64,000 nt of DNA from Bacteroidota bacterium (GTDB taxonomy: Bacteria > Bacteroidota > Rhodothermia > Rhodothermales > Bin80): positions 72,264-136,263 of the forward strand of contig JAPOTS010000136.1 in NCBI GenBank assembly GCA_026709065.1, written 5' to 3'. The notes beneath the pieces are model-generated. The model was not told the origin of the DNA. It worked only from the letters and a program-made list of their open reading frames with translations, and made no database searches. Position 1 is the stretch's first letter. Each line of letters begins with the position of its first letter. Made by a program: the position numbers and the translations under genes. Shown here one piece after another: positions 5,415-44,066 of this stretch.

Positions 5415-6692
5415 ATGAATAATAGTGATCTTGTTTCTTCATTTGCAGAGATTGCCCGTGAAAAAGGTATTGACCGGGATTCCCTCCAACTCATCGTTGA
5501 AGATGTCATGCGGGCCATGATTCGAACCCGTTTTGGCTCTGATGAAGCCTTTGAAATCATTTTCAATCCTGATCATGGTGACATGCAGATTCTTCACCTA
5601 CGTGAGGTCGTAGATAATTATGATCTTGTTGACCCAGTGACTCAAATTGAGCTTAAAGATGCGGTCAAAATTGAAGATGATTATGAGGTTGAAGATGAAG
5701 TTGCTGAAGAAATCTCAGTTTCTGATTTTGGAAGACGCGCAGTGCAAACAGCTCGCTATACATTCCATAATCGAATTCGAGATCACGAAAAAGAACATAT
5801 CTATGACGAATATTCAGAGCTCATTGGAGAATTAGTTGTTGGCGAAATCTACCAGATTAGGCGCCGCGAAATACTGGTCATTCATAATCGGGTAGAACTG
5901 ATCATGCCTCGTGAAGAGCAGATTCCAAGAGATCGTTACCGGAAAGGGGATATGGTTCGTGCAATCGTTAAGGAAGTTCGCAGGGATGCAGGTAGCAATC
6001 CACAAGTGATCATTAGCCGGACCGCACCACAGCTGATGGAGCGCCTGTTTGAATTAGAAGTCCCAGAAATTGATGAAGCGATCGTAGAAATCAAATTGAT
6101 TGTCCGTGAGCCAGGAGATCGGGCAAAGGTTGCTGTCATCACTCACGATGAACGTATTGACCCTGTTGGGGCATGTGTGGGACTCAAAGGCAATCGCATT
6201 CACGCGGTGGTCCGTGAACTCAGTAATGAAAACATTGATGTGATGGAGTGGACAGAAGATCCTATCCTGCTCATTAAACGTGCTTTATCACCATCTACAC
6301 CAGTATCAGTGACTATCAATGATAGTGTTGCTCCACCCAAAGCTAAAGTCATCGTAAAAGCCGATGAGGTTAGTCAAGCTATTGGAAAAGGTGGAATCAA
6401 TATCCGACTTGCCGCCCGAATGACTGGGGTTGAATTAGATATATTCAGAGAAATTCCGGCAGATGAAGAAGATGTAGAAATTGGAGAGTTCGCAGATGAA
6501 TTCTCTAGAGAAATTATTGACAGATTGCGCGAAATTGGATGTGATTCGGCCAAAGCAGTTCTCCAGTTATCCGTTGATGAACTGATTCGTCGCAGTGGAC
6601 TCAATGCAGATTTAGCGCAGCAAATCATGAATTCAATTAAGTCTGAATTTGAGGAAGAGGAGGAAGAATTGGAGGAGGAATTCAATTTATAG
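5415..6692 (+). CDS. nusA: Transcription termination/antitermination factor NusA
   Basis: S1 and KH domains ('GACVGLKGNRI', 'AIGKGGINIRLA') and conserved operon position. Confidence 0.95.
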   Translation: MNNSDLVSSFAEIAREKGIDRDSLQLIVEDVMRAMIRTRFGSDEAFEIIFNPDHGDMQILHLREVVDNYDLVDPVTQIELKDAVKIEDDYEVEDEVAEEISVSDFGRRAVQTARYTFHNRIRDHEKEHIYDEYSELIGELVVGEIYQIRRREILVIHNRVELIMPREEQIPRDRYRKGDMVRAIVKEVRRDAGSNPQVIISRTAPQLMERLFELEVPEIDEAIVEIKLIVREPGDRAKVAVITHDERIDPVGACVGLKGNRIHAVVRELSNENIDVMEWTEDPILLIKRALSPSTPVSVTINDSVAPPKAKVIVKADEVSQAIGKGGINIRLAARMTGVELDIFREIPADEEDVEIGEFADEFSREIIDRLREIGCDSAKAVLQLSVDELIRRSGLNADLAQQIMNSIKSEFEEEEEELEEEFNL

Positions 6693-6730
6693 TGCGGTTT
6701 TCTACCCACTGTAAACTCAACAAAGCCTAG

Positions 6731-9592
6731 ATGCCGTCAACTGACAAAATCAAAAAATTCAAAAAGGTTCCTCTGCATAAAGTGTCTCTGGAGTTGAACC
6801 GGACAACGGACACAATTGTCAGTTATTTGGAAGAGAATGGGTATGCGGATGCTCTATCAGGATCAGGAATTAGGGCTGCCATTACTTCCGAAGATGCGTA
6901 CCTTGATCTCTTGGAGCATTATTCCGATGATCGCGAGGTTCATGAACGCGTAGTGGAACTCCGCTCAATCAGAGAAGCGCAGCGTGCAGAAGAATCCATC
7001 AAAATTGAAGAAGAGGAGCTAATAGAGGTCACACCCCCAGAAATTCCATCCGAAATCCCCACCGAGGATGAAGATGCTCAATCAATATCTGAACCTGAAC
7101 CAGATATTACCATTGATGAAGAAACAGATTCAGTACCCGAAACAGTAGAGGACGACACCGATGAGGTAGATCTCACCATAGAAGAATCGGATGAATCTAT
7201 TTCAGAAGAGATTACTGATGAACGAGATGATGAGTCAGTTGGCTCTGATCAAGAGGACATTTCGGATCATCAACAGGTATCCCCCTCTATTACCGCTACC
7301 GAGGAAGTTGTGGATCACCTGTTAGACTCAGATGAATCCACTGATGAGATTGAAACAGTAGAGGATGAACCTCAACAGATAGATCAGGGGACTGAGCAAT
7401 CAGAATCGGAGGACGAGGCTGGTGCCCAAATTGATGAACCTGAATTATCTCACGAAGAGGAAATTCTCTCAGCAGATAGATACCAACTTCAGGGGACAAA
7501 AATTATTGGTAAGATTGATCTTGCAACTGTCAACACCGATGAAGATCCTTCCAAACGACGAAGGACTAAGCGTAAACGCAAGCGCAAGAAGGTGCCATCA
7601 ACTCAGAAGTCTGTAGCTCAATCCGAAGATAAGTCAACAGATCAAAGCACATCTACTAAGTCAAAGCGCAAGCGAAAGTCTAAAGTAGATTCGGAAGCTG
7701 TCGGTCAATCTGTTCAAGAGACCTTAAGAAGTTTAGATCAGGGAACGGACCGAGTACGTCAGCGACGCAGGCGCGCACGTCGTCAGCAACGCGCTGAAGA
7801 GCGAATGAATGTTGAGGTTGAACAAGAAGAAAAAAGCCGTCACATAAGAGTTACGGAGTTTATTTCAACTGGCGAGCTTGCCGACTTGATGGGTATCCCT
7901 GTGACGGAAATCATTAGTATGCTTTTTAGTTCGGGGATGATGGTTTCCATCAATCAGCGCCTTGATGCTGATACCATTGCCTATGTGGCCGATGAATTTG
8001 ATCATACCATTGAATTTATAACCGAATTTGGTGCTGAGGAAATAGACACCGAGGAAGAATTCCCAGAAGATTTAATGCCCCGTGCTCCAGTAGTGACCGT
8101 GATGGGACATGTAGATCACGGAAAGACCTCATTGCTTGACTATGTTCGTAACGCAAGCGTTGCCGCTGGCGAATCAGGAGGAATCACTCAGCATATTGGT
8201 GCCTATAAGGTATCTCTGACGGATAATCGTATAGTAACATTCCTAGATACCCCCGGTCATGAGGCATTTACGGCTATGCGTGCACGTGGTGCAAAAGTAA
8301 CCGATGTAGTCATTCTAGTTGTAGCAGCCAATGATTCAGTGATGCCGCAGACTATTGAAGCCATCAATCACTCTAAAGCTGCAGGAGTTCCTCTGATCAT
8401 TGCCATAAATAAAATTGATTTAGATCAGTCAGATGTTCAGCGTGTAATGAAAGAGCTTTCGGATTATGGGGTCTTAGTTGAGCAATATGGGGGTAAGGTT
8501 CAATGTGCATTCGTTTCTGCCAAGACAGGAGAGGGGATTGACGATCTTCTTGAAAAAGTAATTCTTGAAGCAGATCTGATGGAGTTGAAAGGGAATCCTC
8601 AGCGCCAAGCTCAAGGAATTGTAATTGAGAGCCGATTAGATCGAGGACGGGGCAATGTAGCCACAGTTCTTGTTCAAAACGGGACGCTCAGAGTGGGAGA
8701 TCCGTTCGTTGCTGGGATCTATGGCGGGCGTGTGCGTGCGATGTTTGATGAGCGGGATAATCAGATTAAATCTGTCGGGCCGAGCGAACCAGCTCTGGTC
8801 TTAGGCCTTCCTGGTCAGCCCACTGTAGGAGATCAACTAACGGGTATGAAAGAGGAATCTGAAGCCCGTGAAATAGCCCAACGTCGTCAACAGATCTGGC
8901 GTGAACAGAAGATTCGTCAATATAAACATGTCCGACTTGAAGATGTTGGCCGCAGAATGGCGCTCGGTGACTTTAATGAACTGAATCTCATTATTAAAGC
9001 GGATGTGGGTGGTTCTGTAGAAGCTATCAGTGATTCTCTTCATAAAATTTCTACAGATGAAGTCGCCGTCAATATTATTCATGCTGGTGTAGGTGCAATC
9101 ACCGAAAGTGATGTCATGCTTGCCTCTGCATCAGATGCGGTGATCATCGGTTTTCAGGTTCGCCCTACCGCCGGTGCACGATCTGCGTCAGAGCGAGAGG
9201 AGATTGATATTCGTACGTACTCAATCATTTATGATGCAATTGAAGATATTCGAGACGCACTTGAAGGACTCCTCACACCAGAAGAATCAGAAAAAATCAT
9301 TGGAGTTGCAGAAGTGAGGGAGGTGTTCAAAGTTCCTAAAATCGGTGCTGTTGGAGGCTGTTATATCTCCGAAGGCCGAATTCGCCGCGCAGATACAGTT
9401 CATGTACTGAGAGAGGGAATCGTCATCTACAAAGGACGGCTTGCATCTCTACGTCGCTTTAAGGAAGATGTACGGGAAGTCCTTACAGGTTATGAATGTG
9501 GAATTGGTGTGGAGAAATACAACGATATCAAGGTCGGCGATCAAATTGAAGCGTTTGAGATGGTTCAGACAAAACGCACCCTTGAAGTGTAA
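6731..9592 (+). CDS. infB: Translation initiation factor IF-2
   Basis: GTPase motifs '[12 protein letters not shown]', 'DTPGH' and 'NKID'. It has a long acidic, then Lys/Arg-rich, low-complexity N-terminus. Confidence 0.97.
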
Positions 9593-37460: not shown

Positions 37461-38188
37461 AACTTAGGGCTGAAAAATTAACCAAAAAGTTTAAAAAACG
37501 GACGGTTGTCAATCAGATGTCTCTGAATGTGGAATGTGGAGAAGTTGTTGGCCTACTTGGACCCAATGGTGCAGGCAAGACGACATCGTTCCATATGATT
37601 GTAGGATTGGAACGACCTAATCAAGGCAGAATTTATCTTGGTGACCAAGATATTACTGGACTGCCAATGTATCAACGTGCTAGACAGGGGCTTGGGTATT
37701 TAGCGCAAGAAACGAGCGTCTTTCAGCGTTTGACAGTAGAACAAAACCTACATGCCGTTTTGGAGTTCCAGAAAATTTCCAGACAAGAGCGTGATGATAG
37801 GGTAGATGAGTTGATTTCACAGTTTGGGTTAGAATCGATTCGTACATCAAAGGCATATACGTTATCGGGTGGAGAGCGCAGGAGAACCGAAATTGCACGC
37901 TCCATGGTTCTTAAACCTAAGTTTTTTCTTCTTGATGAACCCTTTGCAGGAGTTGATCCGATTACTGTTGAATATATACAAGATATCATTTGCCAATTGG
38001 CTCAAATGAACATCGGTATATTGATTACCGATCATAATGTCCATGAAACATTGGCCATCACTGACCGGGCCTATCTTTTGTTTGATGGAAAGATTATGAA
38101 GTCTGGAACGGCAGAACAGTTAGCATCCGATCCGCAAGTTCGTCAGCATTATTTAGGTGAGAAATTTGCACTTGACCGTTACCGCTGA
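37448..38188 (+). CDS. lptB: LPS export ABC transporter ATP-binding protein
   Basis: Walker A 'GPNGAGKTT', signature 'LSGGERRR', Walker B 'FFLLDEPF'. About 245 aa. Confidence 0.9.
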   Translation: MGALKLRAEKLTKKFKKRTVVNQMSLNVECGEVVGLLGPNGAGKTTSFHMIVGLERPNQGRIYLGDQDITGLPMYQRARQGLGYLAQETSVFQRLTVEQNLHAVLEFQKISRQERDDRVDELISQFGLESIRTSKAYTLSGGERRRTEIARSMVLKPKFFLLDEPFAGVDPITVEYIQDIICQLAQMNIGILITDHNVHETLAITDRAYLLFDGKIMKSGTAEQLASDPQVRQHYLGEKFALDRYR

Positions 38189-38236
38189 ACGCCTTTGTAA
38201 GGGTAAAGTTAAATTCGTTAAACATTGATTAGTGCT

Positions 38237-39247
38237 ATGGTTGTATTTATGAAGAATAATGCCTCGGAAGAAGAGGTGGAAGCAGTAATAAAAAAACTTA
38301 ATGCGTTTGGATTTGATGTTCATCGTTCAAGTGGAGTGAGTCAAACTGTCTTGGGGGCTATTGGGGTTTCACCTGGATTTGATCATAGAATTTTCCGCGG
38401 ATTAAGTGGGGTAGCTGATGTGCAGCGTGTGACTGAGCCTTACAAGTTAGCAAGTCGTGTGGGACGTGACACTTCAACAGTCGTTGATGTAGATGGGGTC
38501 AAAATGGGTGGAACCGCGATCACGGTCATTGCATCTATCACTAGTTTAGAGAGCATCCTGCAACTTAAGCAAATTGAACCAAAACTCCGGTCATCTGGTG
38601 TCTCATTGATTCAAGGGACTGTACTGAAACCTAGAACATCCTTTTACGATTATCACGGTGTGGAAGAAGAGCACTTGATGTTGATGCATCAAATTGTTGA
38701 TGAGTGTGGATTTAAATTGATGTTAGAAGTGAGCACCTCTGACCTAGCTGAAAAGACTGCAAACTATGCGAGTATGTTGTTGGTAGGGGCTAGAAACATG
38801 CAGAACTTTGGTTTATTACAAGTGTTGGGAGAGATCAATAAGCCTGTTTTGCTTGAGCGCGGTTTTGCTGCAACAGTTGAGGAATGGATTATGTCTGCAG
38901 AATATCTCATGAGAGCAGGGAATACTAACATCATTTTGTGTGAGCGGGGAATTAGAACTTTTGAGGTTGCGACTCGCTACACATTGGATCTCTCAGCTGT
39001 TTCAATCGCAAAGTCTAAGAGTCATCTTCCAGTTTTTGTGAATCCTTCTCAAGGCGTAAGGCTTCGAGATCATGTTCGTCCGATGGCATCTGCAGCTATC
39101 GCAGCTGGAGCTGATGGGGTTGTCATTCATTTACAAAATGAATCGATGAATGTCACCAAGAGTGTTTCGGAGGCACTTAATTTAGATCAGTTTAGGGGTT
39201 TAATTGAAGAGGTTAAGCAAATTGGCCAAATAATTGGCCGTACCTGA
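38237..39247 (+). CDS. 3-deoxy-7-phosphoheptulonate (DAHP) synthase, type I-beta, with an N-terminal ferredoxin-like regulatory domain
   Basis: The N-terminus 'MVVFMKNNASEEEVEAVIKKLNAFGFDVH' resembles the Thermotoga-type DAH7PS regulatory domain. The TIM-barrel part has 'LLERG' and 'ILCERGIRTF'. The ATG at 38237 is preferred over the TTG at 38225. Confidence 0.85.
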   Translation: MVVFMKNNASEEEVEAVIKKLNAFGFDVHRSSGVSQTVLGAIGVSPGFDHRIFRGLSGVADVQRVTEPYKLASRVGRDTSTVVDVDGVKMGGTAITVIASITSLESILQLKQIEPKLRSSGVSLIQGTVLKPRTSFYDYHGVEEEHLMLMHQIVDECGFKLMLEVSTSDLAEKTANYASMLLVGARNMQNFGLLQVLGEINKPVLLERGFAATVEEWIMSAEYLMRAGNTNIILCERGIRTFEVATRYTLDLSAVSIAKSKSHLPVFVNPSQGVRLRDHVRPMASAAIAAGADGVVIHLQNESMNVTKSVSEALNLDQFRGLIEEVKQIGQIIGRT

Positions 39248-39320
39248 TTCCCATATTTTCTACTCTTCAATAATCCTTTCTTGAATATGGCACGCAAAGA
39301 TTTTGGATTAAATATTGGTG

Positions 39321-40028
39321 ATGATTCTCTTAATTGATTACGATAATCTTGGAAAGTTGAGGAGAAGAAGCCTCAGTCAGATTATTCAAATACTTTTAGA
39401 TCAAATCCCTCAACAGAATTACACTCCTACCGATATAGAATTAAACTGTCGATTATATGGAGGCTGGTTAGACAAAAGAAATAAGTACACAAAACTTGCC
39501 CAAAATCTATTTACAGAAATTAAACAGAATTTTCCCTGTGAGATTAAGATATTCAATCACTCAAGAAAAGTTGATGCACCAGAATTAGCCACATCTCTTG
39601 CATGTGATTCAGGCAATGACTTTCCATATACATACAGAGCCCGTTCTGTACCACCTGGGATCAGGGCCAAGCGTTTCCCGCCCCGACGCTGTATATCTAA
39701 GGATCATTGTTCTATCTCTGAAGTTAACATATTTTGGAATGATGGAAAGTGTTCAAACTCAAAATGTCCTGTCGGACTCTCAGAAACCTTCTTTCGACCA
39801 GAACAAAAACTTGTTGACTCAATGATAGTCGTTGATTTAATTCACTTTGCCACTATCCACAAAGAGCATGTGGTATTAGTATCTGGGGATGATGATATGT
39901 GGCCAGGCATACGTTATGCTTTACTCTCTGATACCTCTATTACTCATTTGATTCCAAAATCCCAAACAAGCGGGAAGAATATTTACACACATCTAACTAC
40001 AAATCGTTATTATATCCAGAAGTATTAA
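39321..40028 (+). CDS. NYN/LabA-like (PIN-fold) predicted nuclease with a Cys4 insert
   Basis: 'LLIDYDNL' (strand 1 acidic residues), 'RLYGGW', 'KLVDSMIVVDL' and 'VVLVSGDDDMWPGIRYA' match the NYN acidic signature. The insert is 'C-x5-C-x13-C-x4-C' (ORF-track aa 126-151). The ATG at 39321 is preferred over the TTG at 39315. Confidence 0.65.
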   Translation: MILLIDYDNLGKLRRRSLSQIIQILLDQIPQQNYTPTDIELNCRLYGGWLDKRNKYTKLAQNLFTEIKQNFPCEIKIFNHSRKVDAPELATSLACDSGNDFPYTYRARSVPPGIRAKRFPPRRCISKDHCSISEVNIFWNDGKCSNSKCPVGLSETFFRPEQKLVDSMIVVDLIHFATIHKEHVVLVSGDDDMWPGIRYALLSDTSITHLIPKSQTSGKNIYTHLTTNRYYIQKY

Positions 40029-40039
40029 TTTGTTTTGAG

Positions 40040-42349
40040 ATGCTATTTAAGGACTTTGAAAGAGTATTAAAGACATTTGCCGACGATGATAGTGAAGCGA
40101 TCGTAGATAATGGAGAGTTTTTGGTATATATCCGAGGAAAACCAGTACAGGGCAGACTAAAAAGTGATCCTAGCACAGGGATTACCGTTATTCACGAGGA
40201 GGAAGAAAGTTTGGCAACTCAATGGGTTTTTCGTTATCTAGCAAAGCTTGATAGGCTTGCAGATAGAATCATTGATTACATTCGTCCTCCTGAAAATTAT
40301 GTTTCTCCAAAGATTCATCTTCGTGACTGGAATAATCAACCAAATCAGGTTTTTAGCGCCGATAATTCTACGACTCGGCTGAGAGACTGTCTAACTAACT
40401 TTCATGGAGGGGTTACTTCGATATCTTTTTTGACATCTGATGCTGGCGAAGGAAAAACATCTTTGATTGAAAAAATTTCAGTGGAGCAAGCCCATGCTTT
40501 CAAAGCAAATAAAACAGGAACTTTGATATTGCCCGTCGCATTGGGTGGACGATCTTTTTTACGCTTTGATGCAGTTGTGATTGCTTCCTTGATGAATCGA
40601 CTTCGGTTTTCATACTTATACTACGATTCATTTATTGAACTCATCAAATTAAATGCAATTATTCCGGCATTTGATGGATTTGAGGAAGTCTTAGTAGATG
40701 TCAATTCTAATGAGGCGGTTTCAGCCCTTGGTCATCTAGTCAATGAACTGTCTTCATCGGGGACTATTCTAGTTGCCGCTAGGAAAGCATATTTTGACAG
40801 ATCACTTGATTCTCAATCCAAATTACTAGACTCAATCAGCTCAGATCAGAATGTAGCTCTCCAACGATATGACTTAGAGAGATGGGATCAGTCAGTATTC
40901 TGTAAATATGCAATTAAGCGCGGAATTCGCTCACCAGACAGTCTCTATAACCAAGTAAAAAACGGACTGGGTGGGAATGAATCTCACTCCGTTTTGACAA
41001 GGGCCGTTCTAGTACGAAGGTTGATTGATGTGGCTCAGAATGAGAATGATTTAAATAAATTTTTGCTGAGGCTAGGTGAGTCGCAGGTAAATTATTTCTT
41101 TGATTTTATAGAGACAATTATTGAGCGTGAGGCTAACGAAAAATGGATTAATCGGTCAGGGAATACACCTCTGCTAACCATAGATCAACACCACGAATTA
41201 CTTTCCATAATTGCATCTGAAATGTGGATTAGTGCTGTGGACGCTCTAGGATCTGATGTAATTCAACTCGTTATTGAATTTTTCATCTCCGAAAAAAATA
41301 AAAATAATGATGAAGAGCGTCAAATAGCCAGACGTATTGAAACTCATGCTCTTTTTCGTGAAGATGACTCACAGGGACTTACTAGATATGGTCGAATTCG
41401 ATTTGATCACGAAGATTTTCAAGAATTTTACTTAGGGCAAGCATTAGCTCGAAGCCTCTGTTCGCGTGATAGATCTAATGTAAGATTGATTTTAGATGCT
41501 AATTCACTTACTCAACCAGTAATTCTTGAAGCCACGCGTTATATCCTTGCTCAAAACCAGATAACGATAGATGATATTTGGAATGATCTCAAGCAATTAT
41601 TAAAGGGGGAACGTAGAGTTTCTTACATTCGGGAGAACTGTGGGATGTTAATGCTTGAATTGGCGCAACGCACCCAAAACCCTTACTCAATTAATGAAAT
41701 CAACTTTCCGCCTAATGCATTACAACAGAGGAATTTATCTAAACTTAGAATATATCATTCTTTGTTTAGTTCAACAACTCTTGAGAATACAAAAATTGGT
41801 GGATGCTCATTTATTGATTGTGAGTTTTCAGAGCTTATCTTTAACAATGTACAATCGCATAAAATTTATGATACAGTTTTTGAAAATTGTACGTTTAATT
41901 CTGTATCCATTGATAGTGACACTGAAGATGATCTGCGCAAGTATTATACTCCCTCTAAAGTCTTAGCGCTACTCACTAGTAAAGGGCTGGATTTAAGATC
42001 AAGTACCAACCTAGATGCTAACAATCAACATTCTGTTTCTGATGAAATGGACAATGATATGAAAACAGCACTTAAGGTTATTCGTTTGTTTAGCCGGTCT
42101 ACTACAATTACTGATAAAGTAATTCAACAGCGTCTGGTAAAACAATCAAATTATTTTATGTCTCAAATTCTTCCAAAACTCATCAAAGCTGGATTGATAG
42201 AGGTAAATCATCAATCAAATAAAAGTTATCGATTGATGGTTCCGCTATCAGAGATTGATAGGCTTGTAGACATATCGGGAAGTATTTTTGAAGAATTTAT
42301 TCAGCATGCTCAAGCCCTTAAGCGATCACAGCCACTAGCCCCTCATTAA
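40040..42349 (+). CDS. NACHT-type STAND NTPase with a pentapeptide-repeat-like segment and a C-terminal winged-helix-like domain
   Basis: Walker A 'DAGEGKTS' (aa 134-141), Walker B 'IIPAFDGFEEV' (aa 207-217), 'TILVAARKAY' (aa 242-251), and 'RFDHEDFQEFYLGQAL' (aa 454-469), which resembles the NACHT FxHxSFQEFLAA motif. Pentads with a central F, 'CSFID CEFSE LIFNN ... TVFEN CTFNS VSIDS', run over aa ~575-626. The tail 'ITDKVIQQRLVKQSNYFMSQILPKLIKAGLIEV' is wHTH-like. Confidence 0.7.
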   Translation: MLFKDFERVLKTFADDDSEAIVDNGEFLVYIRGKPVQGRLKSDPSTGITVIHEEEESLATQWVFRYLAKLDRLADRIIDYIRPPENYVSPKIHLRDWNNQPNQVFSADNSTTRLRDCLTNFHGGVTSISFLTSDAGEGKTSLIEKISVEQAHAFKANKTGTLILPVALGGRSFLRFDAVVIASLMNRLRFSYLYYDSFIELIKLNAIIPAFDGFEEVLVDVNSNEAVSALGHLVNELSSSGTILVAARKAYFDRSLDSQSKLLDSISSDQNVALQRYDLERWDQSVFCKYAIKRGIRSPDSLYNQVKNGLGGNESHSVLTRAVLVRRLIDVAQNENDLNKFLLRLGESQVNYFFDFIETIIEREANEKWINRSGNTPLLTIDQHHELLSIIASEMWISAVDALGSDVIQLVIEFFISEKNKNNDEERQIARRIETHALFREDDSQGLTRYGRIRFDHEDFQEFYLGQALARSLCSRDRSNVRLILDANSLTQPVILEATRYILAQNQITIDDIWNDLKQLLKGERRVSYIRENCGMLMLELAQRTQNPYSINEINFPPNALQQRNLSKLRIYHSLFSSTTLENTKIGGCSFIDCEFSELIFNNVQSHKIYDTVFENCTFNSVSIDSDTEDDLRKYYTPSKVLALLTSKGLDLRSSTNLDANNQHSVSDEMDNDMKTALKVIRLFSRSTTITDKVIQQRLVKQSNYFMSQILPKLIKAGLIEVNHQSNKSYRLMVPLSEIDRLVDISGSIFEEFIQHAQALKRSQPLAPH

Positions 42350-42495
42350 TTATGTCACTGAAGATCCATTAATGAATTGTGGATCTGAGATGAGATAAAA
42401 CGGAGAGGTGAGTCTGAATAATTCCATTATAGAAAATATTTATCCCTGAAAAATCAAACCATGAATGAGCCAATATCATACACGCATGACATTGA

Positions 42496-43575
42496 ATGAT
42501 GATTGATTTAGACAAATTGTGTGAGGTTAAGGATCGATTTCATGAGATAAATAAGATCATTTCTGATCCGAAGACTGCCTCAGATCCCACTCAGATGGCA
42601 GATCTTGGGCCAGAGCATCGTGAGCTATCTGAGGTTGTGGTAGCAATTGAACGGTATGAAGCGACGCTCAGCGAAATAGAAGAAATGCAGACATTGATCT
42701 CTACTGAGCTAGATGATGAACTTGTTGCGTTAGCACGTGAGGAATTGGTCAATCTTAATTCTAAGCTGCCGAAATTAGAGGAGACATTGAAGCGGGCACT
42801 GATTCCCAAAGACCCAGCGGATTCACGCGACGCGATCATGGAAATACGCGCAGGTACTGGTGGAAATGAAGCTGCTCTCTTTGCTGCTGATCTCTATCGT
42901 CTCTATGAACGCTACATTGCAAGGAAAGGGTGGAAACTTACCCCTATCAATAGTTCAGTAGGAAGTGTGGGGGGATATAAAGAAGTCGTTTTTGGAATTT
43001 CTGGAACGAATGTATTCGGAAGTCTCAAATATGAAAATGGAGTTCATCGCGTTCAACGAGTACCCCAAACTGAGTCCAGCGGCAGGCTCCATACTTCGGC
43101 AGCAAGTGTTGCAGTACTTCCCGAGGCCTCCGATATAGAAATTGAGATTGCTACAAATGAATTGAAGGTAGATGTCTATCGGTCCAGCGGGCCAGGAGGA
43201 CAAAGCGTTAATACAACGGACTCGGCGGTTAGGATTACTCATATTCCAAGTGGACTCGTGGTCACCTGTCAAGATGAAAAAAGTCAACATAAAAACAAAG
43301 ACAAAGCGATGAGAGTACTTCGCTCACGACTTTATGAAAAGAAAATGTCTGAAATTAATGCGCAACGTGATGAAGTTCGTAGACAGGCAGTTGGTTCAGG
43401 TGACCGTTCAGTTAAGATTCGAACCTATAACTACCCACAAGACCGTGTGACAGATCATCGATTAGAAGGAAACTTGAAGAATTATCCATTACGTAAGATC
43501 ATAGAGGGAGAGTTAGATGAATTACTCAATGCTTTACAGACTGCAGATTATGCTGACAGGATGGCTAATGCTTAA
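42496..43575 (+). CDS. prfA: Peptide chain release factor 1
   Basis: The 'PQT'-type tripeptide region 'RVQRVPQTESSGRLHTS' and the GGQ motif 'SSGPGGQSVNTT'. Confidence 0.95.
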   Translation: MMIDLDKLCEVKDRFHEINKIISDPKTASDPTQMADLGPEHRELSEVVVAIERYEATLSEIEEMQTLISTELDDELVALAREELVNLNSKLPKLEETLKRALIPKDPADSRDAIMEIRAGTGGNEAALFAADLYRLYERYIARKGWKLTPINSSVGSVGGYKEVVFGISGTNVFGSLKYENGVHRVQRVPQTESSGRLHTSAASVAVLPEASDIEIEIATNELKVDVYRSSGPGGQSVNTTDSAVRITHIPSGLVVTCQDEKSQHKNKDKAMRVLRSRLYEKKMSEINAQRDEVRRQAVGSGDRSVKIRTYNYPQDRVTDHRLEGNLKNYPLRKIIEGELDELLNALQTADYADRMANA

Positions 43576-43685
43576 AAATGGAACATCATCTGTATGACAT
43601 GGGTATAAAGGTTTTCTTGCCCTGCTCCTGTGCGATACTGGGGCATGACCAATAAACATTAACTAGTCATTCCGAAGGGATAAGT

Positions 43686-44066
43686 ATGAGTATGAACCGC
43701 AAGATGTACGAACTTACGTACATCCTCACTCCTGTGCTTTCAGTAGATCAAACTGCCGAAGTTGTAGCACGAATCAACGTCATTATCGAGGGTGCTGGCG
43801 GCACTATCATTGAGGTTGATCAATGGGGAACAAAGAAGCTTGCATACCCTGTTGATAAGAAACGTAATGGGTATTATGTGAACCTATATTTTGAAGGTCC
43901 AGGCACTATGATTCCTCGTATTGAGCGTGCACTTACCATTGATGATAATGTACTACGCTCTCTCATTTTAGTAATGGACAAAAGCATGATCGCTCATTAT
44001 CATGCTAATAAATCAAAAACGAAAACTTCTGTTGTAGAAGAAACTGAACCAAGTAAAGATGGCTAG
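43686..44066 (+). CDS. rpsF: 30S ribosomal protein S6
   Basis: 'YELTYILTP', '[10 protein letters not shown]', and operon position with S18 and L9. Confidence 0.93.

What the first reader, a model, noticed from the sequence alone, without database searches (positions are those of the whole stretch)
39248..42495. Two-gene NYN-nuclease + NACHT-STAND cassette inserted between DAHP synthase and prfA: candidate undescribed defence-type system
Two co-directional genes, separated by only 11 nt, sit between two core housekeeping genes.

Gene 1 (39321-40028) carries the acidic signature of NYN/LabA-like PIN-fold nucleases: 'LLIDYDNL', 'KLVDSMIVVDL' and 'VVLVSGDDDMWP'.

Gene 2 (40040-42349) is a NACHT-type STAND NTPase. 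It has Walker A 'DAGEGKTS', Walker B 'AFDGFEEV', 'ILVAARK', and an 'FDHEDFQEFYLGQAL' motif like the NACHT FxHxSFQEFLAA. It also has a ~130-aa N-terminal domain with no motif I recognise.

Pairing a STAND sensor/switch with a nuclease effector is the logic of Avs/bNACHT-type antiphage proteins. Here the putative effector is a separate NYN gene and the sensor end is unusual (see the next finding). I do not recognise this pairing as any named system.

The cassette is also more AT-rich than its neighbours. My hand spot counts on single 100-nt windows gave 27% and 43% G+C inside the cassette and 50% in the adjacent DAHP synthase gene.
Basis: partly seen in the sequence, partly recalled or inferred. 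Interest (0 to 1): 0.85.

Follow-up and report, generated by a model that had tools for sequence, protein, structure and literature searches.

The report
NYN nuclease plus NLR-like defence cassette
Two tightly linked genes, a predicted NYN-type RNA nuclease and an NLR-like (NACHT-type STAND) ATPase with a pentapeptide-repeat tail, form a mobile cassette found across many bacterial phyla, often inside restriction-modification operons, so it is very probably an unnamed and untested anti-phage system.

Summary
Genes at 39321-40028 (235 aa) and 40040-42349 (769 aa) lie 11 nt apart between DAHP synthase and prfA, in the lowest-GC 3-kb stretch of the window (37.3% against 42.6%).

Gene 1 belongs to a family in which 24 of 27 members hit Pfam NYN. 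All acidic motif residues and a four-cysteine insert are invariant. Fold searches did not confirm the fold.

Gene 2 gets no significant Pfam NACHT hit. Its confident AlphaFold model matches only NLRs in the Foldseek top 50 (NLRC4 8.5e-14), and it carries the NACHT D-G-h-E-E Walker B.

Among 76 reference-genome loci with upstream DNA, spanning more than 10 phyla, 65 have a full NYN gene directly upstream on the same strand. Eight more have a split or partial copy.

Four relatives with identical synteny have an empty DAHPS-prfA junction, and at least seven have it occupied, so the cassette is an insertion.

The pair sits between hsdS and hsdR in five loci and beside type I R-M genes in four more. 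Elsewhere it neighbours GmrSD, Dsr1, DarG and other defence genes. No PADLOC model or paper found names it.

Best reading: a new two-gene variant of bacterial NLR-like immunity with a separately encoded RNase effector. No experiment supports this yet.

The parts
39248..39320 (+). 73-nt intergenic region between the DAHP synthase stop and the gene 1 start; presumed promoter region of the cassette
   Evidence: Sequence read. The sigma-70 scan found no site here. No repeat pairs this region with the downstream border.
39321..40028 (+). Gene 1: stand-alone NYN-like (PIN-like) predicted nuclease, 235 aa
   Evidence: ORF. Pfam NYN E=6.8e-4 for the window protein and 24/27 homologues at E<=0.01. The family has 1254 representative clusters, and the top 150 are all stand-alone, mostly ~235 aa (193-341 aa).
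39327..39350 (+). NYN motif 1, LLIDYDNL (D6, D8 and N9 invariant)
39690..39767 (+). Four-cysteine insert, CISKDHC...CSNSKC (C124, C130, C144, C149 invariant), a zinc-ribbon-like insertion in the NYN core
   Evidence: Invariant Cys columns. Lower-confidence insert at about aa 100-160 in the model. A divergent paralogue in L021 lacks this region. Zinc binding is inferred.
39807..39839 (+). NYN motif 2, KLVDSMIVVDL (D166 and D172 invariant)
   Evidence: This is the region matched by Pfam NYN profile positions 74-113.
39870..39905 (+). NYN motif 3, VVLVSGDDDMWP (D190 and D192 invariant)
40029..40039 (+). 11-nt spacer between the two genes, implying an operon
   Evidence: In the 65 related loci with a full upstream NYN gene, the end of the NYN alignment lies a median of 33 nt before the NTPase start.
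40040..42349 (+). Gene 2: NLR-like (NACHT-type) STAND NTPase with a pentapeptide-repeat and winged-helix-like C-terminus, 769 aa
   Evidence: ORF. More than 1179 homologues of uniform length. AlphaFold2 model with pLDDT 83.6 and pTM 0.79. Foldseek top 50 all NLRs, NLRC4 8.5e-14.
40040..40294 (+). N-terminal alpha/beta domain (aa 1-85) of unknown fold; proposed adaptor for the NYN partner
   Evidence: Confident in the model (block pLDDT 83-92). Conserved, mean column identity 0.47. No Pfam, PADLOC or NCBIfam hit. The adaptor role is inference only.
40436..40462 (+). Walker A, SDAGEGKTS (K139)
   Evidence: Invariant G136 E137 G138 K139 T140.
40658..40687 (+). Walker B, IIPAFDGFEE (D212-G-F-E215-E216), a NACHT-type D[GAS]hDE-like signature
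   Evidence: Invariant P209 A210 D212 G213 E215. Signature definition read.
41402..41419 (+). FDHEDF motif in the winged-helix subdomain (H457 invariant)
   Evidence: Assignment to the winged-helix subdomain comes from the model's secondary structure.
41675..41947 (+). Pentapeptide-repeat beta-helix (aa 546-636), presumed sensor surface
   Evidence: Pfam Pentapeptide_4 4.5e-5 and 26/28 homologues. The family profile hits MfpA and AlbG in PDB at 2.3e-5. Short-strand ladder at aa 549-635 in the model. Among the more variable regions, identity 0.36.
42050..42328 (+). C-terminal domain (aa 671-763) with winged-helix-like topology
   Evidence: Secondary-structure order H-E-H-E-E-H-H in the model. 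No profile hit. The fold name is an inference from topology.
42350..42495 (+). 146-nt intergenic region before prfA; right border of the insertion
   Evidence: Empty junctions in relatives are 40-66 nt. No terminator-like site found here.

Best explanation
The two genes form one operon that encodes a two-component anti-phage (conflict) system of the bacterial NLR-like kind.

Gene 2 is the sensor and switch. It is a NACHT-type STAND NTPase held inactive in the ADP-bound state. Its variable C-terminal half (pentapeptide-repeat beta-helix plus a winged-helix-like domain) recognises an infection cue. Nucleotide exchange then drives oligomerisation.

Gene 1 is the effector. It is a free-standing NYN (PIN-like) metal-dependent nuclease with a zinc-ribbon-like insert, most probably an RNase. 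It is recruited or released through the conserved N-terminal domain of the NTPase. It then degrades RNA, stopping phage replication at the cost of the infected cell (abortive infection).

What is shown: gene structure, family-level domain assignments, obligate pairing, insertion polymorphism and defence-type neighbourhoods.

What is inferred: the trigger, the contact between the N-terminal domain and the NYN protein, the RNA substrate and the abortive outcome.
For: Domains. NLR-like fold: Foldseek top 50 against PDB are all NLRs, with NLRC4 8.5e-14 and NOD2 2.4e-12, on a confident model. Walker A, NACHT-type Walker B and the FDHEDF histidine are invariant. The NYN profile hits 24/27 family members and the aspartates are invariant.

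Obligate pair. Of 76 loci with upstream DNA, from more than 10 phyla, 65 have a full NYN gene directly upstream on the same strand, 8 have a split or partial copy, 2 have one nearby and 1 has none. A second pair at only 23%/33% identity keeps the same arrangement in L021.

Accessory and mobile. The DAHPS-prfA junction is empty in L164-L167. It is occupied in the window, L004, L005, L007, L010, L012, L168 and L169/L170. Junction copies are not monophyletic in a neighbour-joining tree. The cassette has the lowest GC in the window. L004 and L012 hold tandem copies. The NYN gene is interrupted by ~1.2 kb in L009, L011 and L018, where the L011 insert encodes an ISL3 transposase, and it is frameshifted in L005.

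Defence context. The order hsdS-NYN-NTPase-hsdR is seen in L055 and L060. The same order with one or two extra ORFs between the NTPase and hsdR occurs in L056, L059 and L080. Type I R-M genes are adjacent in L032, L041, L047 and L081. Immediate neighbours hit PADLOC HEC-05/GmrSD, HEC-06, Dsr1, DarG, NsnA, PD-T4-2, PDC-S01, PDC-S02 and PDC-M72A. A GmrSD gene follows the pairs in L004.

Variability. The NTPase core is the most conserved part (0.63) and the C-terminal half the least (0.23-0.40), as expected for a sensor.

Precedent. A STAND sensor with a separately encoded nuclease effector exists in Avs2-trypsin plus MBL.
Against: No experiment exists.

No PADLOC or NCBIfam defence model hits either protein.

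The NYN fold is not confirmed by structure search. The best PDB match has E 0.03, and LabA-like and NYN-annotated viral proteins reach only E about 0.4.

Pfam NACHT is not significant. Weak hits favour nSTAND_NTPase5 (14/28, best 0.0033) over NACHT (1/28).

There are no homologues on plasmids or phages in the collections searched. No integrase or flanking repeats were found.

In this lineage the pair persists at one junction between core genes in at least seven genomes, which also fits long vertical retention.

No NYN-NTPase fusion protein appears among the top 150 NYN relatives, so a physical partnership has no support from gene fusions.

The neighbourhood evidence is not compared with a genome-wide baseline.
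Confidence: 0.6

Rival explanations
1. The pair is a toxin-antitoxin-like or addiction module. The NYN nuclease is a toxin kept in check by the NTPase. The pair persists because losing it is harmful, or it stabilises the islands it sits in, without sensing phage specifically.
For: Strict two-gene linkage with short spacing. Persistence at one chromosomal junction in several genomes. Location inside R-M operons, which are themselves addictive. Frequent inactivation of the NYN gene rather than the NTPase gene, in L005, L009, L011 and L018, as expected if the nuclease is the harmful partner.
Against: A 769-aa multidomain STAND protein with a variable repeat sensor is far more elaborate than known antitoxins. 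STAND proteins of this build are signal-activated switches. The two readings overlap, since many abortive-infection systems are toxin-antitoxin-like.
Confidence: 0.15
2. The pair is a host regulatory module. The STAND protein is a signal-dependent regulator in the manner of MalT or AfsR, using its C-terminal winged-helix-like domain to bind DNA. The NYN protein is an RNase acting in regulated RNA turnover. Neither has a role in defence.
For: Winged-helix-like topology at the C-terminus. Chromosomal only, with no plasmid or phage copies. Retained next to translation and envelope genes in a Rhodothermales lineage. No hit to defence model libraries.
Against: Patchy distribution over more than 10 phyla in unrelated contexts. 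Empty junctions in close relatives. Tandem divergent paralogues. Pseudogenised copies. Insertion between hsdS and hsdR, and defence neighbours. No conserved regulated target gene next to the pair.
Confidence: 0.1
3. It is a defence system, but with the roles reversed or different. The NYN-like protein would be a nucleic-acid sensor or processing factor (or a DNase), and the output would reside in the NTPase, for example in its uncharacterised N-terminal domain or through partners sequestered by the pentapeptide DNA mimic.
For: The N-terminal 85-aa domain has no recognisable fold and is conserved. The NYN protein carries a zinc-ribbon-like insert that could bind nucleic acid. Structure search did not confirm a canonical NYN active-site fold. 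Solved pentapeptide-repeat proteins matched by the profile (MfpA, AlbG) act as DNA mimics on gyrase (plus established knowledge).
Against: All acidic residues expected of an active NYN/PIN nuclease are invariant across the family, which argues for catalysis. In bacterial NACHT proteins the enzymatic effector usually sits N-terminal of the NTPase, which is the side on which the NYN gene is encoded here.
Confidence: 0.1

Closest known systems
Bacterial NACHT / NLR-related anti-phage proteins (bNACHT; Kibby et al., bioRxiv 10.1101/2022.07.19.500537)
   Same: Central NLR-like STAND module with Walker A, a D-G-h-acidic-acidic Walker B and a winged-helix histidine. A C-terminal superstructure-forming repeat acts as the presumed sensor, and pentapeptide repeats are listed among bNACHT sensors. 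Genomic association with other defence genes.
   Different: bNACHT proteins are described as single polypeptides with the effector fused at the N-terminus. Here the predicted effector is a separate upstream gene, and the N-terminus carries an 85-aa domain of unknown fold. No PADLOC v2 model matches. Pfam NACHT is not significant. NYN is not among the effectors listed in the text read.
Avs (antiviral STAND) systems, especially Avs2-trypsin with a separately encoded MBL nuclease (bioRxiv 10.64898/2026.08.25.746987)
   Same: The same logic: a STAND sensor recognises a phage cue, oligomerises and switches on a nuclease encoded by a neighbouring gene.
   Different: Avs sensors are TPR-based, and the NTPase belongs to other STAND clades. 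Avs2 activates MBL by proteolysis through a fused trypsin domain. Here there is no protease domain, the repeats are pentapeptide and the effector is NYN-like. No Avs model hit.
HEC-09, a single-gene NYN-domain candidate embedded in Hma systems (Payne et al., bioRxiv 10.1101/2024.01.29.577857)
   Same: An NYN-type predicted RNase found by 'guilt by embedding' inside another defence system. The present pair is likewise embedded in type I R-M operons.
   Different: HEC-09 is a single protein with an N-terminal HTH-like region and gave no protection against the phages tested. The PADLOC HEC-09 model does not hit gene 1. Gene 1 is always paired with a STAND NTPase and has a four-cysteine insert.
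PrrC-type anticodon nuclease embedded in a type I R-M locus (established knowledge, not tested here)
   Same: An RNA-targeting abortive-infection nuclease with an NTPase component, encoded between the subunit genes of a type I R-M operon. Here the order hsdS-NYN-NTPase-hsdR is seen in L055 and L060.
   Different: PrrC is one protein with an ABC-type NTPase domain and is regulated by the R-M enzyme itself. Here there are two proteins, a STAND NTPase and an NYN nuclease. Most copies, including the window's, are not next to R-M genes.

Membership tests
NYN domain (Pfam PF01936; PIN-like nucleases) | Profile match to PF01936 at or above the curated threshold | tested here: inconclusive
   The window protein scores 20.6 bits, E 6.8e-4, below the 24.2-bit cut-off, and only aa 162-200 align. 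Across the family, 24/27 homologues hit at E<=0.01, best 1.6e-8. Many homologues carry a precomputed PF01936 assignment.
NYN domain (Pfam PF01936; PIN-like nucleases) | Conserved acidic residues at the first strand (DxxN-type), the central helix, and an SGDxD-type motif after the last core strand | tested here: met
   D6, D8, N9, D166, D172, D190 and D192 are invariant in 27 sequences down to 31% identity. Their placement on strand 2-6, helix 164-180 and the loop after strand 184-187 comes from the model.
NYN domain (Pfam PF01936; PIN-like nucleases) | Three-layer alpha/beta PIN-like fold similar to solved NYN/LabA structures | tested here: inconclusive
   Foldseek against PDB: nothing below E 0.03. 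The family profile against PDB sequences gave no hit. In BFVD, a LabA-like protein (E 0.39, TMt 0.53) and an NYN-domain protein (E 0.42) appear among weak hits. The insert of roughly 75 residues (aa ~85-160) may mask the core.
NYN domain (Pfam PF01936; PIN-like nucleases) | Metal-dependent nuclease activity | not testable with these tools
   Needs purified protein and RNA/DNA substrates.
NACHT clade of STAND NTPases | [quoted passage not shown] | tested here: met
   G136-E-G-K139-T and D212-G213-F-E215-E216. All are invariant except E216 (at least 90%). Glu replaces the signature's Asp. The definition was read.
NACHT clade of STAND NTPases | NBD, helical and winged-helix architecture that resembles solved NACHT proteins more than other NTPases | tested here: met
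   The Foldseek top 50 against PDB are all NLRs (NLRC4, NOD2, NLRP3, NLRP2/7/9/14, NAIP), E 8.5e-14 to 4.5e-8, probability 1.0. Global TM is only 0.2-0.37 because relative domain positions differ.
NACHT clade of STAND NTPases | Profile match to Pfam NACHT PF05729 | tested here: not met
   No hit for the window protein. 1/28 homologues hit at E 0.0041. nSTAND_NTPase5 hits 14/28 (best 0.0033) and AAA_16 hits 8/28, all below threshold. The family profile finds no solved NTPase by sequence. The clade within STAND is therefore not settled.
NACHT clade of STAND NTPases | Nucleotide-dependent oligomerisation | not testable with these tools
   Needs biochemistry or cryo-EM.
Named anti-phage systems in PADLOC-DB v2.0.0 (including bNACHT/NLR, Avs, HEC and PDC candidates) | Match of either protein to a system model | tested here: not met
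   Gene 1: no hits. Gene 2: only a chance-level Csm2 hit, E 0.031. NCBIfam: only a pentapeptide-region hit to HalA at 17 bits against a cut-off of 250.
Defence systems in general (operational criteria) | Accessory, patchily distributed, and located in defence islands or embedded in other defence operons | tested here: met
   Empty against occupied junctions. More than 10 phyla. The pair lies between hsdS and hsdR in L055, L060, L056, L059 and L080. PADLOC defence hits occur among immediate neighbours. No genome-wide baseline was computed.
Defence systems in general (operational criteria) | Protection against phage on expression | not testable with these tools
   An experiment is required.
Pentapeptide-repeat proteins | Tandem A(D/N)LXX-type repeats forming a right-handed beta-helix | tested here: met
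   Pfam Pentapeptide_4 at 4.5e-5, below the cut-off of 38 bits, and 26/28 homologues at E<=0.1. The family profile hits MfpA 2bm4 and AlbG 2xt4 at 2.3e-5. Ladder of short strands at aa 549-635 in the model.

The most novel reading that the evidence does not exclude
This would be a new, widespread family of split bacterial NLR-like immune receptors. A DNA-mimicking pentapeptide-repeat helix plus a winged-helix domain would serve as bait for phage DNA-binding proteins. A previously unseen N-terminal adaptor domain would recruit a free-standing zinc-ribbon NYN RNase in trans. That would be a sensor-adaptor-effector split analogous to receptor-caspase recruitment in inflammasomes, and distinct from all fused-effector bNACHT and Avs families.
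Probability: 0.2. Interest if true: 0.75.

Novelty: new variant of a known kind. Interest (0 to 1): 0.58.

Why it matters
If confirmed, this adds a common two-gene member to the bacterial NLR-like immune repertoire. The NTPase has more than 1100 clusters at 90% identity. The NYN partner has about 1250 clusters at 50% identity, spread over more than 10 phyla.

It would be the first such system to use an NYN-type RNase as a separately encoded effector and a pentapeptide-repeat helix as the sensor.

It offers a tractable case for asking how a STAND switch controls an effector it is not fused to.

It also shows that current defence-finder models and Pfam NACHT miss a sizeable STAND family. That matters when annotating environmental and symbiont genomes.

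Tried and rejected
1. Sequence searches of the NTPase family profile against PDB found only pentapeptide-repeat proteins and no NTPase. The NYN profile found nothing.

2. Foldseek of the NYN model against PDB and BFVD gave no significant match.

3. PADLOC and NCBIfam scans of both proteins found nothing useful.

4. tblastn against the plasmid and phage collections found no match, so there is no evidence of carriage on those elements.

5. The prfA scan of JGI metagenome contigs found no close relatives (best 65-66%). Its one useful locus, L084, has metabolic genes in the DAHPS-prfA gap (glmS, flavin reductases, a luciferase-like monooxygenase), which says nothing about the cassette.

6. I looked for insertion scars. 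There are no direct or inverted repeats bracketing the cassette and no similarity between the borders and the empty junctions.

7. The promoter and terminator scans showed nothing above the shuffled expectation. Rfam found no RNA family in 38000-44000.

8. I looked for NYN-NTPase fusion proteins as evidence of partnership. None occur among the top 150 of 1254 NYN relatives.

9. Literature searches for a named NYN plus NACHT/STAND system found none. The supplementary tables of the 2026 STAND survey were not available.

10. I at first described L003 as Planctomycete-like because of its PSD-domain neighbours. I dropped this, because a Rhodothermales locus has the same domains and the L003 NTPase is nearly identical to a Vicinamibacterales copy.

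Full report
**1. What is in the window**

Two co-directional ORFs lie between DAHP synthase (38225-39247) and prfA (42496-43575). Gene 1 runs 39321-40028 (235 aa from the ATG) and gene 2 runs 40040-42349 (769 aa). Eleven bases separate them. The flanking genes are identified by strong Pfam hits.

The cassette is 37.3% G+C against 42.6% for the whole window. It is the lowest-GC 3-kb stretch in the 64 kb.

No Rfam family, no convincing promoter or terminator, and no bracketing repeats were found.

**2. Gene 1 (NYN-like)**

The window protein alone is below Pfam's NYN threshold (20.6 against 24.2 bits). It belongs to a uniform family of proteins of about 235 aa:
- 140 clusters were found in the first search.
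- A full HMMER scan of 1.84 billion representatives found 1254 representative clusters at E<=1e-3.

Of 27 aligned members, 24 hit PF01936, the best at 1.6e-8.

Invariant residues are D6, Y7, D8, N9, E161, Q162, K163, D166, D172, D190 and D192. Four cysteines (C124, C130, C144, C149) in an insert are also invariant. This is the acidic constellation expected of an active PIN-like/NYN nuclease, plus a zinc-ribbon-like insertion (zinc binding is inferred).

The AlphaFold model is confident in the core (pLDDT 83.3). Foldseek found no significant match in PDB. In the viral library it found only weak full-length similarity to proteins annotated LabA-like and NYN (E about 0.4).

I therefore treat 'NYN-like nuclease' as supported by profile and motifs but not confirmed by structure.

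**3. Gene 2 (NLR-like STAND NTPase)**

Pfam gives no NACHT hit, only sub-threshold pentapeptide repeats. PADLOC and NCBIfam give nothing meaningful.

The protein has more than 1179 homologues, all 750-770 aa and all unnamed. An alignment of 28 shows these invariant features:
- Walker A: G136-E-G-K139-T.
- Walker B: P209-A-F-D212-G-F-E215-E.
- The histidine in F455-D-H457-E-D.

An AlphaFold2 model built on that alignment has pLDDT 83.6 and pTM 0.79. Its 50 best Foldseek matches in PDB are all animal NLRs. Examples are NLRC4 at 8.5e-14, NOD2 at 2.4e-12, then NLRP3, NLRP2/7/9/14 and NAIP.

The Walker B fits the D[GAS]hDE-type signature that Kibby et al. use to separate NACHT from other STAND clades.

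Sequence profiles remain ambiguous. Among the 28 members, nSTAND_NTPase5 is hit weakly by 14, AAA_16 by 8 and NACHT by 1, all below threshold. 'NACHT-type' is therefore the best structural description, but the exact clade within STAND is open.

Domain map from the model:

| Region (aa) | Assignment |
|---|---|
| 1-85 | alpha/beta domain of unknown fold |
| about 125-280 | NTPase core |
| 281-545 | helical and winged-helix subdomains |
| 546-636 | pentapeptide beta-helix |
| 671-763 | domain with winged-helix-like topology |

The pentapeptide assignment is supported by family-profile hits to MfpA and AlbG at 2.3e-5. Conservation is highest in the NTPase core (0.63). It is lowest in the C-terminal half and the linkers (0.23-0.40).

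**4. The two genes are one unit**

A scan of one genome per species returned 80 loci. They come from Rhodothermales, several Acidobacteriota orders, Binatia, Thermodesulfobacteriota, Longimicrobiales, Latescibacterota, Myxococcota, Verrucomicrobiota and Phycisphaerales. They also include a Heliomicrobium MAG and many Proteobacteria, among them Pseudomonas, Lonsdalea, Thauera, Polaromonas, Lysobacter, Dyella and Methylophilus.

Of the 76 loci with enough upstream DNA:
- 65 have a full-length NYN homologue directly upstream on the same strand.
- 8 have a split or partial copy.
- 2 have one nearby.
- 1 has none, and its NTPase is itself degraded.

In L011 the NYN gene is interrupted by an ISL3 transposase. 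In L005 it is frameshifted.

L021 carries a second pair on the other strand, at only 23% (NTPase) and 33% (NYN) identity. That NYN lacks the cysteine insert. The arrangement is therefore older than the subfamily.

**5. The cassette is an insertion, not a core feature**

It is not.

The order asd-lptC-lptA-lptB-DAHPS-prfA-rpsF-rpsR-rplI-dsbD-sbcB is shared by a set of Rhodothermales genomes.
- **Occupied junction:** the window; conspecific contigs (L168, prfA 99%); L169/L170 (84%); L004 (88%, two tandem pairs followed by a GmrSD gene); L005; L007; L010; and L012 (one NYN gene and two NTPase genes).
- **Empty junction:** L164, L165, L166 and L167 (prfA 76-80%), where DAHPS and prfA are 40-66 nt apart.

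L164 is the same genome as L009, so that genome keeps a pair elsewhere.

In a neighbour-joining tree without bootstrap support, the junction copies fall into three groups. Copies from other genomic contexts sit between them. This fits repeated gain or exchange at a hotspot rather than simple vertical descent. Long retention with loss cannot be excluded.

**6. Evidence for a defence role**

Clustering all flanking ORFs across loci gave only three recurrent non-syntenic neighbour families. They are hsdM, hsdS and hsdR.

The pair sits between hsdS and hsdR in five loci from five different lineages:
- L055 and L060 have tight spacing.
- L056, L059 and L080 have one or two extra ORFs between the NTPase and hsdR.

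The pair lies next to type I R-M genes in L032, L041, L047 and L081.

Among about 150 immediate neighbours, PADLOC also finds HEC-05/GmrSD, HEC-06, Dsr1, DarG, NsnA, PD-T4-2, PDC-S01, PDC-S02 and PDC-M72A. Embedding inside other defence operons is the criterion Payne et al. used to find new systems.

These are associations. I did not compute a baseline, and there is no experiment.

**7. Most likely mechanism**

This follows the known behaviour of NLR-like STAND proteins, as read. The NTPase is a nucleotide-gated switch, and its variable C-terminal repeat region detects an infection cue. Oligomerisation then activates an effector.

Here the effector is encoded separately, upstream. That is the side on which fused effectors normally sit in bacterial NACHT proteins.

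The conserved but unassignable N-terminal domain is the obvious candidate for holding or recruiting the NYN protein. NYN enzymes characterised elsewhere are RNases (established knowledge), so RNA cleavage and abortive infection are the expected outputs.

What is shown: the domains, the pairing, the mobility and the context.

What is inferred: the trigger, the contact, the substrate and the outcome.

**8. Comparison with known systems, and novelty**

The logic matches bNACHT and Avs immunity. The closest precedent for a STAND sensor with a separately encoded nuclease is Avs2-trypsin with MBL. HEC-09 is a single-gene NYN candidate that gave no protection.

Neither protein matches any PADLOC v2 model. 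No paper in the library describes an NYN plus NACHT/STAND pair.

A 2026 survey sorted prokaryotic STANDs into 589 clades and called 198 of them defence-associated. This family may be one of those clades, but the tables were not available.

I therefore class it as a new variant of a known kind: widespread, unnamed and untested.

**9. Verdict**

- Observation: confirmed.
- Interpretation: supported.
- Confidence in the defence-system reading with the NYN protein as effector: 0.6.
- Interest: moderate to high. The family is large and missed by current tools, and it gives a clean case of a split sensor-effector NLR-like system. The overall logic would not surprise a specialist.

Noticed in passing
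L004:7283-15736 (OZ244857.1, Rhodothermales MAG; also L001/L002): At the same DAHPS-prfA junction, this 71% relative carries two tandem NYN+NTPase pairs. The second is only about 48%/41% identical to the window's proteins. A GmrSD_N restriction gene (PADLOC HEC-05-like) follows them. The junction therefore behaves as a small defence island.
   Followed up: partly
L021:12821-15782 (- strand; OZ253576.1, Vicinamibacterales MAG): A second, very divergent NYN-like + NACHT-like pair lies a few kb from the first, on the opposite strand. The NTPase is 23% identical (E 2e-33) and the NYN is about 33% identical and lacks the four-cysteine insert. This points to a wider superfamily of such pairs.
   Followed up: partly
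L011:6596-7819; also L009 about 6532-7775 and L018 about 6361-7670: The NYN gene is split by an insertion of about 1.2 kb in three genomes. In L011 the insert encodes an ISL3-family transposase. In L005 the NYN gene is frameshifted. It is the nuclease gene, not the NTPase gene, that is repeatedly disrupted.
   Followed up: partly
L055:3043-13399, L060:990-8907, L056, L059, L080: The pair is embedded between hsdS and hsdR of type I R-M operons in five unrelated lineages: Bacteroidales, an uncultured bacterium, Victivallales, Myxococcota and Chthoniobacterales.
   Followed up: yes
Record titles of L008, L022, L027, L031, L050, L026: Many of the closest relatives, across several phyla, come from MAG sets whose names suggest sponge or coral metagenomes (bin80, bin61, SB0661_bin_8, RHO3_bin_5, Plut_88870). 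That reading rests on my recollection of those datasets. If right, the cassette may be shared within host-associated microbial communities.
   Followed up: no
L005:6203-7204: In this syntenic relative the DAHP synthase is only 42% identical to the window's, against 57-73% in the other syntenic genomes. The greedy ORF call there is short. This suggests a replaced or degraded copy next to the cassette.
   Followed up: no
L167:1838-4408: In one empty-junction relative, an 856-aa LRR protein with a Por secretion tail is inserted between the lptC-like and lptA-like genes. This is a second variable spot in the otherwise conserved gene order.
   Followed up: no
window:35127-35200: A tRNA-Gly(GCC) gene lies between asd and the lptC-like gene. 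It is the only tRNA in the window and is 4 kb from the cassette, so it is not its insertion site.
   Followed up: no
L164:14347-14879: Fragments of an ISL3 transposase (a Zn-ribbon piece and a DDE piece called as separate short genes) lie downstream of sbcB in the genome with the empty junction. The same IS family interrupts NYN genes elsewhere.
   Followed up: no
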